Assembly (NCBI RefSeq): GCF_024298765.1
Contig: NZ_CP101210.1
Source of the DNA: Escherichia coli
GTDB taxonomy: Bacteria > Pseudomonadota > Gammaproteobacteria > Enterobacterales > Enterobacteriaceae
DNA: 64,000 nucleotides
Strand: one strand, 5' to 3'
A program made the position numbers. Every line of letters starts with the position of its first letter. The stretch's first letter is position 1. Below, in pieces: positions 7,101-10,100 of the stretch.

Positions 7101-10100
7101 CAGGCTGTTTTCAGTTATGGGCATCACGCCGGATTGCGCATCAATGGCGCTGATTTTTCCGTCCTGCAGATGAATCTGCCACAGCCCCTCTTTGCCTGGT
7201 AACCGGGCGTTAATAATTGTTTGTAAAGCGTTATTCGACACTGTTAGCCTCCACATGCGTCATTGCTGCTGTCGTTTTACGATTCAAAATCGGGTTAAGG
7301 ATCAGATAGCTCAGCGCGCCACCTAATACCGCGTTGACCGGAACAATACCCGGTAACCAGTGGCCTGCGGCAATCCCCAGCGCGACCGCCAGAATCGCCA
7401 CCCAATTGACACTCATCATACGCGTGGTCGCAAAGTGCTCATAGCGGCGACGGTTCATCAGATAGTCAGCGATGATCACGCCCCCTACCGGAGGAATAGC
7501 TGCCGAAAGGAAGGTCAGCCAGCCGACAAAATTGTTATACAACCATAATGCGCAGACCGTACCGATAATACCGTTAATCACCGAAAGGGTTTTACTCGAC
7601 ATACCGGTAATGTTGGCGAAACCTAAACCCGACGCATAAAGTGCGTTATCGTTGGTGGTCCAGATATTCAGCCCCAGCACCACAATCGCAGGCAGCAGCA
7701 GACCCTGAGCAATCATCACATCAGAGATATCCGCCATCCCCAGTGCCGCCGCGCCCGCTGCACCGAAAATAAACATCAACGAGTTGCCGAGGAAAAAGGC
7801 CACCATCGCCACCAGCACCGCCAGTTTGGCATTACGACCAAACCGGACAAAGTCAGCGGTGAGCGTGCCCGCACTGATAAATGACCCCACAACCAGCGCC
7901 AGCGCGACATTGAAATCTAACGGTTGTGCGGGAACGACCGCTTTTAATGCGTCCAGGCCGCCCATGCCGTTAACGGCCAACCACACGGAATAACCGCCAA
8001 GACAGGCGATAGCCGGAACTGCAATCACCGAAAGAACCGTCAGCGCCGAAATGCCAAAGAAGACGGTGACGGTCATCAGTAAACCGGAAACGGCAATCAG
8101 CAAATTAATATCCAGCCCGGTTGCCTTGCCCACCGGAATGGCAAACATCGCCACGCCAACGCCAAACCAGCCAACCTGGGTGCCGCCCAGCAGCAGTGAA
8201 GGCAGCCATGAGCCTTTAACACCAAAAGAGAAGCGAGCAAGAAGATGAGTGGTCAGGCCGGTTTTTGCGCCAATGTAACCAAGAAATGAAGTGTAAATAC
8301 CGAGGAGAAGATTACCGATGAGGACTGCGAGGAAGAAATCATGATAGCTAAGACCGGTTCCGAGAGTGCCGCCGGTCCACATACTGGCGGAAAAGAAGGT
8401 TAATCCCAGCATGACGAACGTCAATGCTAATACCCCTTTCCGCGCCGACTGCGGGACTGGCCCCTGGCTAAAGTTGTTATCTTGCGACACGAAATTCCCC
8501 CTTTTTGCTGTTTGAAACCCAAAAAATCCGCCGCATTCTATTCATCTGAAGATAAAAAGCAATCGTTTTCGTGGGGAAATATATTTTTTATATGAATGAG
8601 TGCAAAAAGGTGGGGGAAAAATTATCGGTGTAAAAACAGTGGGTAGGCATAATAAGACGCGGTAAGCGTCGCATCAGGCATCGGCGCATGGTGTCGGATG
8701 CGGCGCGAGCGCCTTATCCGACCTACGGTTCAGGCCTGTAGGCATGATAAGACGCGTCAGCGTCGCATCAGGCATCTGCGCACGGTGTCGGATGCGGCGC
8801 GAGCGCCTTATCCGACCTACTCTTCCATCGCCTGGCGGATCTGATCCAACGACGCCGGATCATCAATGGTCGTCAGGTTCCCAGGATCACGTCCTTCGCA
8901 AATCGCCTGGATCGTGCGGCGCAGCATTTTTCCAGATCGCGTTTTCGGCAATTGCGAGACAAACCAGACGTGCGCCGGGCGGCCAAAGTTGCCAATCTGG
9001 CTGTCCACCAGCGCCATAATCGCCTTCTCTTGCGAGTGCGCCACCTCACGGTCTTCCAGACTGTCGCTCTCTTTCGGAATGACAAACGCCACCGCCACCT
9101 GCCCTTTCAGCGCATCTTTCACCCCAACCACCGCCACTTCGGCAACGCCCGGATGACTGGAGATACTCTCTTCAATCTCGCGCGTCCCCAGCCGATGCCC
9201 GGCAACGTTAATCACATCGTCAGTGCGCCCGAGAATAAAGTGATAACCGTCAGCATCGCGGATGCCCCAGTCAAAGGTGGCATACACCGGACGGGAAAAC
9301 AGCGACCAGTACGTCTTCACAAAGCGGTCGTCATCGCCCCAGATGGTCTGAATACACCCCGGCGGCAGCGGCCCTTCCACCACCAGCATCCCTTTCTCGT
9401 TGACGCCGCACGGTTCGCCGGTGACTTCATTGAGCAACTGCACGTTATAGCCATACATCGGCACGCCGGGGCTACCCAGACGCGTCGGCCTGTCGTCCAG
9501 ACCGCGAGCAATCGCCATAATCGGCCAGCCGGATTCGGTCTGCCAGTAATTGTCGATCACCGGCACATCCAGCGTATTGCTCACCCAACTGGCGGTCGGC
9601 TCGTCCAGCGGTTCTCCAGCCAGATAGAGCACTTCCAGCGACGAGAGATCGTGTTTGCGAATTTCAGCGGTAGGGAATTTTTTCAGCACGCGAATGGCGG
9701 TCGGCGCTGAGAACATGCGGCTAACCTGATATTTCTCGACAATTTTCCACCACACGCCGCAGTCCGGCCAGGTCGGCAATCCTTCGTAAACGATAGTCGC
9801 CATCCCCGCCAGCAGCGGCGCGTAAACGATATACGAATGCCCTACCACCCAGCCGATATCCGAAGCACAAAAGAACACGCCGCCCGCTTTGCCGCCAAAA
9901 ATGATGTCCATCGAGGTCGCCAGCGCCACCGCATATCCGCCGACATCACGCTGCACGCCTTTAGGTTTGCCGGTTGTGCCGGAGGTGTAGAGAATACAGG
10001 AGGTTTCGTTGGATTCCAGCCACGCCACCGGCACCCGCGCACCGATGTGTTGATGGCGCAACGACGCGAAATCGACATCCCGCCCGCTGACGCGCGCCAT

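What the first reader, a model, noticed from the sequence alone, without database searches (positions are those of the whole stretch)
8646..8820. Tandemly duplicated BIME/REP units at two intergenic sites
Both the codB-prpE spacer (8646..8820) and the yahI-yahG spacer (27261..27448) contain two direct, near-identical copies of an 80-85 bp REP-pair unit. Duplicated BIMEs are common in E. coli but are sites of copy-number variation and can bind IHF and gyrase or stabilise upstream mRNA. The second site corresponds to where K-12 annotates the tiny yahH ORF, which is therefore probably not a real gene.
Basis: seen in the sequence. Interest (0 to 1): 0.2.

Follow-up and report, generated by a model that had tools for sequence, protein, structure and literature searches.

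The report
Two variable-copy REP/BIME repeat arrays
Both spacers hold ordinary E. coli REP/BIME palindromic repeats, each present here as a two-unit version of an array whose unit number differs widely between strains, and the small "yahH" gene annotated at the second site is most likely just a by-product of that repeat.

Summary
The window is E. coli strain 104, and its only two long-period tandem repeats are 8643-8820 (period 94) and 27268-27447 (period 93), each with 1.9 copies. Each unit is an 82-84 bp pair of inverted REPs, and the two copies are 94-96% identical.

Site 1 (prpE-codB) is a classical BIME-2 made of y and z2 REPs. Site 2 (yahG-yahI, K-12 REP23) pairs y with the short z1 REP in tandem, which fits an "atypical BIME". 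Neither has the BIME-1 long linker or an IHF consensus, so the IHF suggestion fails for these elements.

Copy number varies between complete E. coli genomes. Site 1 has 1, 2, 3 or 8 units. Site 2 has 0, 1, 2, 4 or 5, and the REP-free allele is in 655 of 5,426 genomes.

yahH-like ORFs appear only where there are two or more units. Their length follows unit number. Two of the three sense frames have no stops, and K-12 YahH and the EHEC 465-nt ORF use different frames. yahH is therefore best read as a by-product of the repeat.

The likely role, inferred from literature, is as transcribed hairpins that act as an mRNA 3' barrier and partial attenuator. The first REP starts 1 nt after the prpE stop codon. 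All of this is already known biology, so interest is low.

The parts
8786..8820 (-). Site 1, unit 1: y-type REP (variant GTAGGTCGGATAAGGCGCTCGCGCCGCATCCGACA). Its GTAG supplies the prpE TAG stop codon (8817-8819), and the hairpin stem starts 1 nt after the stop.
   Evidence: 0 edits to the y-variant model; hairpin -18.8 kcal/mol, z -4.1
8775..8785 (-). Site 1, unit 1: 11-nt head-to-head linker CCGTGCGCAGA, resembling the S linker GTTATGCGCAGA of the BIME-2 flanking rayT.
8738..8774 (-). Site 1, unit 1: z2-type REP in inverted orientation (TGCCTGATGCGACGCTGACGCGTCTTATCATGCCTAC).
   Evidence: 1 edit; same form as the z2 flanking rayT in K-12; hairpin -14.8 kcal/mol
8727..8737 (-). Site 1: 11-nt inter-unit (tail-to-tail) linker AGGCCTGAACC.
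8692..8726 (-). Site 1, unit 2: y-type REP (variant), identical to the unit 1 y.
8643..8680 (-). Site 1, unit 2: z2-type REP (inverted, 38 nt, 4 edits), followed by 152 bp of unique AT-rich DNA that holds the single sigma-70-type promoter-like match upstream of codB (8606-8578).
8643..8820 (-). Site 1 as a whole: a BIME-2 array of two [y-11-z2] units with period 94. Each unit scores above the gathering threshold of Rfam RF02564 (naRNA4) on the transcribed strand.
   Evidence: MFE -94.3 kcal/mol, z -5.4; 70.2 and 61.6 bits against a gathering score of 59.5
27413..27447 (-). Site 2, unit 1 in the direction of transcription: canonical y REP in inverted orientation (TGCCGGATGCGGCGTGAACGCCTTATCCGGCCTAC), starting 22 nt after the yahG TGA stop (27470-27472).
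   Evidence: 0 edits; hairpin -21.3 kcal/mol
27366..27395 (-). Site 2, unit 1: short Z (z1) REP GTAGGCCTGATAAGCGTAGCGCATCAGGCA, preceded by the 17-nt linker at 27396-27412.
   Evidence: hairpin -12.9 kcal/mol
27320..27354 (-). Site 2, unit 2: y REP (inverted, 1 edit), preceded by the 11-nt inter-unit linker at 27355-27365.
27273..27302 (-). Site 2, unit 2: z1 REP, preceded by the 17-nt linker at 27303-27319; 49 nt then separate it from the yahI start codon.
27268..27447 (-). Site 2 as a whole: a tandem y/z1 'atypical BIME' of two units with period 93, the counterpart of K-12 REP23. It lies inside the yahDEFG-IJ gene row.
   Evidence: (MFE -98.2 kcal/mol, z -3.5); naRNA4 hit at 27323-27392 on the + (antisense) strand, 68.8 bits
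27255..27491 (-). 78-aa yahH-like ORF, annotated by PGAP as hypothetical protein WP_001695472.1. It has a GTG start inside the yahG 3' end and is a translation of the repeat. Judged to be an annotation artefact.
   Evidence: no Pfam or NCBIfam family reaches its cut-off

Best explanation
Both features are ordinary E. coli BIME arrays, made of alternating inverted REP hairpins that carry a GTAG tag. In this strain each is present as a two-unit allele of a locus whose copy number varies widely between strains.

Site 1 is a BIME-2, [y-11 nt-z2] x2, lying between the prpE stop codon and the codB promoter region. Site 2 is a tandem y/z1 'atypical BIME', [y-17 nt-z1] x2, lying between yahG and yahI inside one gene row.

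Origin (inferred): unit number changes by in-register recombination or replication slippage between the 93-94 bp direct repeats. Historically the REP-associated transposase RayT may also have contributed by cleavage and rejoining. The window's strain has no rayT at the canonical locus, so any current change there would depend on host recombination or replication.

Function (inferred from literature, not tested here): both arrays are transcribed as part of the prp and yah mRNAs. Their stable hairpins block 3'-to-5' exonucleases and partly attenuate transcription into the downstream gene, in a partly Rho-dependent way. This favours the upstream genes (prpBCDE, yahDEFG) over the downstream ones (codBA read-through, yahIJ). 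At site 1 the first hairpin begins 1 nt after the prpE stop codon, a position reported to stall terminating ribosomes and lower translation. As DNA, the y REPs of the BIME-2 are probable gyrase sites. The yahH-like ORF is a by-product of a stop-free repeat, not a conserved gene.
For: Shown here:
- Tandem arrays confirmed, and far above chance.
- All eight REPs match the y, z1 or z2 models with 0-4 edits, in alternating orientation.
- z2 was defined empirically from the BIME-2 flanking rayT in K-12, which the literature calls y + z2 (PMC2817692; PMC3333891).
- The short Z is the partner of the long linker in a BIME-1 consensus that is present in 5425 of 5426 genomes.
- No IHF core in either array.
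- Each REP folds as a stable hairpin, -13 to -21 kcal/mol, and the whole arrays have z -5.4 and -3.5.
- The prpE stop codon lies inside the first REP.
- Copy-number alleles: site 1 has 1, 2, 3 or 8 units and site 2 has 0, 1, 2, 4 or 5.
- rayT is absent from its canonical locus in strain 104, where only a BIME-2 array remains. rayT was found in 3575 of 5426 genomes.
- yahH-like ORFs track unit number, two sense frames are stop-free, and the frame differs between K-12 and O157:H7.

From the literature:
- BIME classes and strain-to-strain copy variation (PMC3333891).
- Gyrase cleavage is enriched in BIME-2, mainly in y REPs (PMC6379681).
- The REP325 BIME-2 array acts as both stabiliser and partly Rho-dependent attenuator inside an operon (bioRxiv 10.64898/2026.03.23.713779).
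- REPs within 15 nt of a stop codon stall ribosomes (Liang et al. 2015, as described in PMC12306157).
Against: No expression, RNA 3'-end, gyrase or translation data for these two loci were available. The Topo-seq supplementary files held as text do not mention these genes. The functional part therefore rests wholly on analogy with other BIMEs, whose effects are reported to depend on context. There is no U-tract intrinsic terminator at either array. The allele frequencies come from evenly spaced samples of 40 and 60 rows from ranked hit lists, not from a full census. The class of site 1 records that matched only on the array and prpE side proved mixed when five were checked (8, 8, 8 and 3 units, and 2 units plus IS621). 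Repeat arrays can also be mis-assembled.
Confidence: 0.85

Rival explanations
1. yahH is a real protein-coding gene: the REP array at site 2 is translated into a repeat protein with its own function.
For: Neuhaus et al. 2016 reported ribosome footprints over a 465-nt ORF (X002, called yahH) in the yahG-yahI gap of EHEC EDL933, with RPKM 56 and coverage 0.61 (PMC4765031). PGAP and the K-12 record still annotate such ORFs.
Against: No such ORF is annotated in the fetched 0-unit and 1-unit alleles. Those two classes make up about 58% of the informative sampled records and 655 genomes are REP-free; in the hit list, one 1-unit-class record (H59) does carry a yahH annotation.

The annotated length follows the array rather than being conserved: 78, 98, 106 and 121 aa, or 154 aa for the 465-nt ORF. 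Two of the three sense frames have no stops in the array, so long ORFs are automatic.

K-12 YahH (VNALSGL... frame) and the 465-nt O157:H7 ORF (MRRERLIRPT... frame) use different frames for about two thirds of their length. No protein family reaches its cut-off. Footprint reads on a repeat present in many copies per genome map ambiguously, and no mass-spectrometry peptide is listed for X002.
Confidence: 0.07
2. The arrays are IHF-binding BIME-1 (RIP/RIB) elements, as the first reader suggested might be the case.
For: They contain y and Z REP pairs, as BIME-1 does. IHF binding to BIMEs is documented in the literature (PMC3333891, PMC2817692).
Against: BIME-1 is single-copy, with z1 and y separated by a long conserved L linker that carries the IHF site. 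Here the linkers are 11 and 17 nt, the units are tandem, and no WATCAANNNNTTR match exists in either spacer even with one mismatch. A BIME-1 consensus scanned the same way does show the site, ATTCAATATATTG.
Confidence: 0.02
3. The units encode naRNA4-like nucleoid-associated RNAs that act with HU to condense the chromosome.
For: Three units score above the Rfam RF02564 gathering threshold, and both site 1 units do so on the transcribed strand. Qian et al. 2015 proposed that REP325 naRNAs and HU bridge REP cruciforms, and that homologous REPs may substitute for them (PMC4550694).
Against: The Rfam model is in effect a model of a y-linker-Z REP pair, so a hit shows BIME sequence and not function. 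A 2026 preprint from the Xiao and Adhya laboratories found no effect of REP325 or the naRNAs on nucleoid volume and no REP-REP contacts. It reassigned REP325 to local control of mRNA 3' ends. At site 2 the hit is on the strand antisense to the operon.
Confidence: 0.04
4. The main role is at the DNA level: the arrays are strong gyrase sites and topological insulators, separating the prp operon from codBA and yahG from yahI. This does not exclude the RNA-level explanation.
For: Site 1 is a true BIME-2. Gyrase cleavage sites are enriched in BIME-2, mainly in y REPs, and independently of transcription (PMC6379681). BIME-2 elements lie mostly at borders between supercoiling regions (PMC10592627).
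Against: Only a subset of BIME-2 elements carry cleavage sites, and these loci are not named in the supplementary text that is held. Site 2 is not a BIME-2. Natural alleles with 0 or 1 unit are common, so any insulating role is dispensable.
Confidence: 0.2
5. The repeat is a chance similarity or an assembly artefact.
For: Tandem arrays with about 94-bp periods can be collapsed or expanded in assemblies.
Against: TRF scores are 321 and 332 against a maximum of 77 in 30 random windows. The window is 100% identical to a complete genome. Two-unit alleles at the same sites exist in other strains: K-12 at site 1 and CH459 at site 2.
Confidence: 0.01

Closest known systems
BIME-2 arrays flanking rayT (yafM) in E. 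coli K-12, the REPtron
   Same: Site 1 has the same building blocks and order: a y REP, a short head-to-head linker (CCGTGCGCAGA against GTTATGCGCAGA), the long z2 REP ending ATCATGCCTAC, a tail-to-tail linker ending CCTGAAC(C/G), and tandem repetition.
   Different: Site 1 uses a y subtype with compensating changes at both ends of the stem (TCGGA...TCCGA instead of CCGGA...TCCGG). Its period is 94 rather than about 100. It is not next to rayT, and strain 104 lacks rayT at its canonical locus altogether.
REP325 (yjdM-yjdN), a six-unit BIME-2 and the source of naRNA4 (Rfam RF02564)
   Same: It is a tandem y-linker-z2 array between two co-oriented genes. The units of both window sites reach the Rfam gathering score. 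It is the best-studied model for what such an array does: it stabilises the upstream mRNA and partly attenuates transcription into the downstream gene.
   Different: There are two units here rather than six. Site 2 uses z1 rather than z2 and has the opposite REP order relative to transcription. No experimental data exist for these loci.
K-12 REP23 and yahH (b0322)
   Same: This is the orthologous locus of site 2, with the same y/z1 units, the same linkers and the same flanks. EcoCyc-based work describes yahH as 'filled with REP23 sites' (PMC11551758).
   Different: K-12 has four units (421-bp spacer, 106-aa ORF). The window has two (246-bp spacer, 78-aa ORF) and a different 22-nt leader after the yahG stop, against 12 nt in K-12.
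BIME-1 / RIP / RIB elements (z1 - L linker with IHF site - y)
   Same: Site 2 shares the z1 and y REP types.
   Different: BIME-1 is single-copy with a long conserved linker (39 nt in the consensus tested here) that carries an IHF site. Neither window site has such a linker or IHF motif, and both are tandem.

Membership tests
E. coli REP / palindromic unit (GTAG-tagged) | An imperfect palindrome of 30-40 nt that can fold as a hairpin | tested here: met
   All four REP types fold as single hairpins of -12.9 to -21.3 kcal/mol, z -3.3 to -5.3.
E. coli REP / palindromic unit (GTAG-tagged) | A conserved GTAG tetranucleotide 5' of the foot of the stem | tested here: met
   GTAG (or CTAC on the opposite strand) is present on all eight REPs.
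E. coli REP / palindromic unit (GTAG-tagged) | Sequence matches the y, z1 or z2 consensus | tested here: met
   0-4 edits to the models. z2 was defined from the BIME-2 flanking rayT. z1 was assigned as the short Z that pairs with the L linker.
E. coli REP / palindromic unit (GTAG-tagged) | Extragenic location and many copies per genome | tested here: met
   Both arrays are intergenic. Queries containing them hit a median of 11 and 33 places per genome. There are six REP sites in the window.
BIME-2 | Alternating y and z2 REPs in inverse orientation with a short (S) linker | tested here: met
   Site 1 is yv>-11-z2<-11-yv>-11-z2<. This is not met at site 2, which has z1.
BIME-2 | Occurs as tandem copies whose number varies between strains | tested here: met
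   Site 1 has 1, 2, 3 or 8 units in different genomes.
BIME-2 | Bound and cleaved by DNA gyrase in vivo | not testable with these tools
   Literature only (PMC6379681). These loci are not named in the supplementary text that is held.
BIME-1 (RIP/RIB) | A single z1 + y pair separated by the long L linker | tested here: not met
   Linkers are 11 and 17 nt and the units are tandem, against a 39-nt linker in the BIME-1 consensus.
BIME-1 (RIP/RIB) | An IHF binding site in the linker | tested here: not met
   There is no WATCAANNNNTTR match at up to 1 mismatch in either spacer. The positive control, the BIME-1 consensus, has ATTCAATATATTG.
Atypical BIME | A tandem array built from a non-canonical combination of y, z1, z2 and linkers | tested here: met
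   Site 2 is [y<-17-z1>-11-] x2 with no L linker. The definition is from PMC3333891. The z1 label is an inference by elimination, supported.
Rfam RF02564 naRNA4 | Covariance-model score at or above the curated gathering score (59.5 bits) | tested here: met
   70.2 and 61.6 bits (site 1, - strand) and 68.8 bits (site 2, + strand).
Rfam RF02564 naRNA4 | Produced as a discrete RNA that binds HU | not testable with these tools
   There are no expression data. The family's proposed function is disputed.
Conserved protein-coding gene (yahH) | The ORF, its frame and its length are conserved across strains | tested here: not met
   No such ORF is annotated in the fetched 0-unit and 1-unit alleles. Length is 78 to 154 aa according to unit number. 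The frame differs between K-12 and O157:H7.
Conserved protein-coding gene (yahH) | Membership of a curated protein family | tested here: not met
   No Pfam or NCBIfam model reaches its cut-off.

The most novel reading that the evidence does not exclude
The natural allelic series (0 to 5 units at yahG-yahI, 1 to 8 units at prpE-codB) may work as a heritable, stepwise control on expression. Unit number would set the yahDEFG to yahIJ transcript ratio, and the hairpin 1 nt after the prpE stop codon would set PrpE yield. Strains would then tune these pathways by expanding and contracting the repeat, without changing promoters or coding sequence. A more speculative version is that the stop-free array is also translated into repeat peptides of variable length.
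Probability: 0.2. Interest if true: 0.35.

Novelty: already known. Interest (0 to 1): 0.1.

Why it matters
It matters little as a discovery. REP/BIME arrays, their strain-to-strain variation in copy number, the REP23/yahH problem and the candidate functions (mRNA 3' barrier, Rho-linked attenuation, gyrase sites) are all in the literature.

The practical value is for annotation. The 78-aa "hypothetical protein" at 27255-27491 in this strain, and yahH in K-12, should be treated as repeat-derived ORFs. The IHF label should not be attached to these two elements.

The allele series found here (0 to 5 units and 1 to 8 units) would be a convenient natural test set for the recently proposed model of REP arrays as combined terminators and stabilisers.

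Tried and rejected
- IHF binding: I scanned both spacers for WATCAANNNNTTR exactly and with one mismatch and found nothing. A BIME-1 consensus used as a positive control does match. Rejected.
- Intrinsic terminator: there is no hairpin plus U-tract at site 2. The single site 1 hit lies inside a z2 REP and has a poor tail. Rejected as the mechanism.
- Protein homology for the yahH-like ORFs: only sub-threshold matches, to SidA in NCBIfam and to AcetylCoA_hyd_C in Pfam. Rejected.
- The curated K-12 record in this collection lists no REP repeat features for either region, so the REP number of site 1 could not be read from it.
- The supplement of Ton-Hoang 2012 is not held. The Sutormin 2019 supplementary text that is held does not mention these genes. 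Liang et al. 2015 is not held and is cited second-hand through PMC12306157.
- A whole-unit identity matrix between REP sites was uninformative, because the REP cores are nearly identical everywhere. Only the linkers distinguish the sites.
- An exact census of unit number was not possible, because the search tool reports match spans only for the listed rows. I used evenly spaced samples and fetched 18 representative alleles. The class of site 1 hits that matched only on the array and prpE side turned out to be mixed.
- I expected active RayT to explain the variation in this strain, but strain 104 has no rayT at its canonical locus.
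Full report
OBSERVATION. Tandem Repeats Finder reports exactly two long-period arrays in the 64-kb window. One is at 8643-8820 (period 94, 1.9 copies, 94% matches, score 321). The other is at 27268-27447 (period 93, 1.9 copies, 95% matches, score 332). In 30 random windows generated by a first-order Markov chain, the best score for a period of 30 or more was 77. The REP-pair cores of the two copies align at 79 of 84 positions at site 1 and 79 of 82 at site 2. The period is 94 and 93 because an 11-nt inter-unit linker is repeated as well.

CONTEXT. The window is 100% identical to E. coli strain 104 (NZ_CP029164.1, from chicken) and runs in the reverse orientation to K-12. 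Site 1 lies between prpE (8817-10703, minus strand) and codB (7231-8490, minus strand). Site 2 lies between yahG (27470-28888, minus strand) and yahI (26273-27223, minus strand), inside the row of co-oriented genes yahD-E-F(fdrA)-G-I-J. Both arrays are therefore downstream of a gene's stop codon and upstream of the next gene on the same strand. Four other REP sites occur in the first 14 kb of the window: lacY-lacA, lacA/cynX, cynR/codA and prpC-prpB. None occurs beyond 28 kb.

ANATOMY AND CLASS. Read in the direction of transcription, site 1 has the order y - 11 nt - inverted z2 - 11 nt - y - 11 nt - inverted z2. Its y is a subtype, GTAGGTCGGATAAGGCGCTCGCGCCGCATCCGACA, with compensating changes at both ends of the stem.

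To fix what "z2" means, I fetched the BIME-2 arrays that flank rayT (yafM) in K-12. Two papers describe these as y + z2 (PMC2817692; PMC3333891). Their Z is the long form TGCCTGATGCGACGCTGGCGCGTCTTATCATGCCTAC. Their head-to-head linker, GTTATGCGCAGA, resembles the CCGTGCGCAGA of site 1. Site 1 is therefore a true BIME-2.

Site 2 has the order inverted y - 17 nt - short Z - 11 nt - inverted y - 17 nt - short Z, where the short Z is GTAGGCCTGATAAGCGTAGCGCATCAGGCA. That short Z is the partner of the long linker in a BIME-1 consensus that I recalled from memory and then tested. The consensus is present over at least 80% of its length in 5425 of 5426 genomes, and its linker carries ATTCAATATATTG, one mismatch from the IHF core. 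The short Z is therefore z1. By the published definitions, site 2, a tandem y/z1 array without the L linker, is an "atypical BIME".

Neither spacer has a WATCAANNNNTTR match, even with one mismatch.

VARIATION BETWEEN STRAINS. I searched 5,426 complete E. coli genomes with 901-nt queries across each site, took evenly spaced rows from the ranked hit lists, and fetched 18 representative alleles.

At site 1 the alleles found were:
- One unit: 236-bp spacer, strain SWHEFF_68.
- Two units: K-12 at 329 bp and the window at 326 bp.
- Three units: 423 bp.
- Eight units: 893-900 bp, in O157:H7 strain 2571, HSP60 and D8.

In the 40-row sample for site 1, about 18 rows were two-unit, 10 were one-unit and 1 was three-unit. 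Eight rows matched only on the array and prpE side. Of five of these that I checked, three had 8 units, one had 3, and one had 2 units plus an IS621 insertion.

In most strains the first element after the prpE stop is a shorter symmetrical hairpin (for example GTAGGTTATTGTCGGATGCGTCGC...GCATCCGACA). The window strain has a full y REP there instead. That is what a deletion between two GTAGGT motifs of a longer array would leave. This is an inference.

At site 2 the alleles found were:
- Zero units: 95-bp spacer holding an unrelated unique palindrome. The full-length form is in 655 of 5,426 genomes, once per genome.
- One unit: 142 or 153 bp.
- Two units: 235 bp, and 246 bp in the window.
- Four units: 421-422 bp, including K-12.
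- Five units: 514 bp, in O157:H7.

In the 60-row sample for site 2 the counts were 7 rows with zero units, 24 with one, 2 with two, 20 with three or more, and 7 uninformative. The window's two-unit allele is a minority form at site 2. These are sample-based estimates from a database that is itself unevenly sampled.

yahH. K-12 annotates yahH (b0322, 339769-340089, 106 aa) entirely inside its four-unit array. PGAP annotates a 78-aa hypothetical protein at 27255-27491 in the window's strain. In other fetched strains the annotated ORF is 98 or 121 aa, and none is annotated in the fetched 0-unit and 1-unit alleles.

Because the unit is 93 nt, or 31 codons, and two of the three sense frames contain no stop codon, any array yields long ORFs in two frames. 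Units of 92 nt switch between these frames.

The 465-nt ATG ORF in O157:H7 (MRRERLIRPT...) has the same length and position as the ORF X002/yahH reported with ribosome footprints by Neuhaus et al. (PMC4765031). It uses a different frame from K-12 YahH (VNALSGL...) for about two thirds of its length. No Pfam or NCBIfam family reaches its cut-off.

EcoCyc-based work already describes yahH as "filled with REP23 sites" (PMC11551758). I conclude that yahH is a by-product of the repeat. The footprint claim remains, but it rests on reads from a sequence present in many copies per genome.

HOW IT PROBABLY WORKS. This section is inferred. Every REP folds into a stable RNA hairpin of -12.9 to -21.3 kcal/mol, and a REP pair can alternatively form one long hairpin of about -39 kcal/mol. 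The whole arrays fold far better than shuffled controls, with z -5.4 and -3.5. There is no U-tract terminator at either array.

For the closest studied analogue, REP325, a six-unit BIME-2 between yjdM and yjdN, a 2026 preprint shows two effects together: stabilisation of the upstream mRNA and partly Rho-dependent attenuation before the downstream gene. It also reports that upstream-biased expression across tandem gene pairs is more frequent where REPs are more canonical in sequence and hairpin structure. Stable stem-loops define the 3' ends of most Rho-dependent transcripts, and 24% of those ends lie at annotated REP elements (PMC6061677). I therefore expect the arrays to favour prpBCDE and yahDEFG over read-through into codBA and yahIJ.

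At site 1 the prpE TAG is part of the REP's GTAG, and the stem begins 1 nt later. REPs within 15 nt of a stop codon are reported to stall terminating ribosomes and lower translation (Liang et al. 2015, as described in PMC12306157). At site 2 the gap between stop codon and REP is 22 nt in the window but 12 nt in K-12-type alleles, so this effect would depend on the allele.

As DNA, BIME-2 elements are enriched for gyrase cleavage, mainly in y REPs (PMC6379681), and tend to lie at borders between supercoiling regions (PMC10592627). That is plausible for site 1, but it was not tested.

Rfam's naRNA4 model (RF02564) scores above its gathering threshold on both site 1 units on the transcribed strand, and on one y-z1 pair on the antisense strand of site 2. 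This shows only that the units are BIME-like. The proposed nucleoid-condensing role of naRNA4 (PMC4550694) is contradicted by the 2026 preprint.

DYNAMICS. RayT (TnpA-REP) cleaves and recombines BIMEs in vitro and has been proposed to drive their amplification (PMC3333891). Strain 104, however, has no rayT at the canonical yafL-fhiA locus. Only a three-unit BIME-2 array remains there. This matches the published class of strains from which rayT has been precisely excised. rayT was detectable in 3575 of 5426 genomes, close to the published 74 of 110. Any current change in unit number in this lineage would therefore rely on host recombination or replication slippage between the 93-94 bp direct repeats.

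Two other events at site 1 show that the locus is prone to rearrangement. Strain Ec1119 has an IS621 insertion inside the last z2 REP. Strain TW11681 has a deletion of about 217 bp that fuses a y REP to the body of prpE and replaces the PrpE C-terminus.

VERDICT. Everything found here is a documented kind of element behaving in a documented way. Novelty: already known. Interest: 0.1.

Noticed in passing
L018 14840-15115 (NZ_CP029164.1, about 4594840-4595115; outside the window): The window's own strain has no rayT (yafM) gene at the canonical yafL-fhiA locus. Only a three-unit y/z2 BIME-2 array remains there, as in the published 'precisely excised' B2-type class. rayT was found by megablast in only 3575 of 5426 complete E. 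coli genomes.
   Followed up: partly
window 8817-8820: The prpE stop codon (TAG) is supplied by the conserved GTAG of the first REP, and the hairpin stem starts 1 nt later. This is well within the 15-nt distance reported to stall terminating ribosomes.
   Followed up: partly
L021 61-1676 (NZ_CP126600.1, strain Ec1119): An IS621 (IS110-family) element is inserted inside the last z2 REP of the prpE-codB BIME, at ...TTATCAGGCCT|. This fits the known preference of IS621 for REP targets.
   Followed up: partly
L009 about 2063-2100 (NZ_CP035855.1, strain TW11681): About 217 nt of the prpE 3' end is deleted, with the junction inside a y REP (TGTCGGATGCG|CCACATC). This gives a shortened PrpE whose new C-terminus (...AHPTPCADA*) is read from REP sequence.
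   Followed up: partly
L012 525-619 (NZ_CM136155.1; the same class includes IAI39): A REP-free allele of the yahG-yahI spacer (95 bp) carries an unrelated palindrome, CCCTTCTCCCTTCTGGGGAGAGGGG, in place of the BIME. The full-length form is in 655 of 5426 genomes, once per genome, so it is not a repeat family.
   Followed up: partly
L014 1556-2020(-) compared with L002 5770-6090(+): The 465-nt ATG ORF in the O157:H7 array has the same length and position as the ORF published with ribosome footprints as yahH/X002. It is in a different reading frame from K-12 YahH for about two thirds of its length, so the two 'YahH' proteins are not the same protein.
   Followed up: yes
window 1700-1735; 2380-2475; 5840-5918; 13440-13525: There are four further REP sites: a single y-variant between lacY and lacA, a degenerate pair between lacA and cynX, a z1-16 nt-y pair between cynR and codA whose REP parts are identical to a site 2 unit, and a variant pair between prpC and prpB. 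No REPs occur beyond 28 kb.
   Followed up: partly
window 19485-24582: A block of about 5 kb lies between yahK and yahJ. It holds four ABC-transporter genes, including a substrate-binding protein of the autoinducer-2 type, and an ASCH-domain gene. K-12 has only the yahJ-yahK junction here, so this looks like a strain-specific insertion.
   Followed up: no
window 34984-38967 and 17483-17727: PGAP marks ehaA (autotransporter adhesin) as a pseudogene with an internal stop, and yahM as frameshifted, in this strain.
   Followed up: no
window 27448-27469 compared with K-12 L002 5745-5756: The leader between the yahG stop codon and the first REP comes in two forms. It is 22 nt in the window and in SF-173-type strains, and 12 nt in K-12 and O157-type strains. 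The first form places the REP outside the reported 15-nt ribosome-stalling distance and the second places it inside.
   Followed up: no
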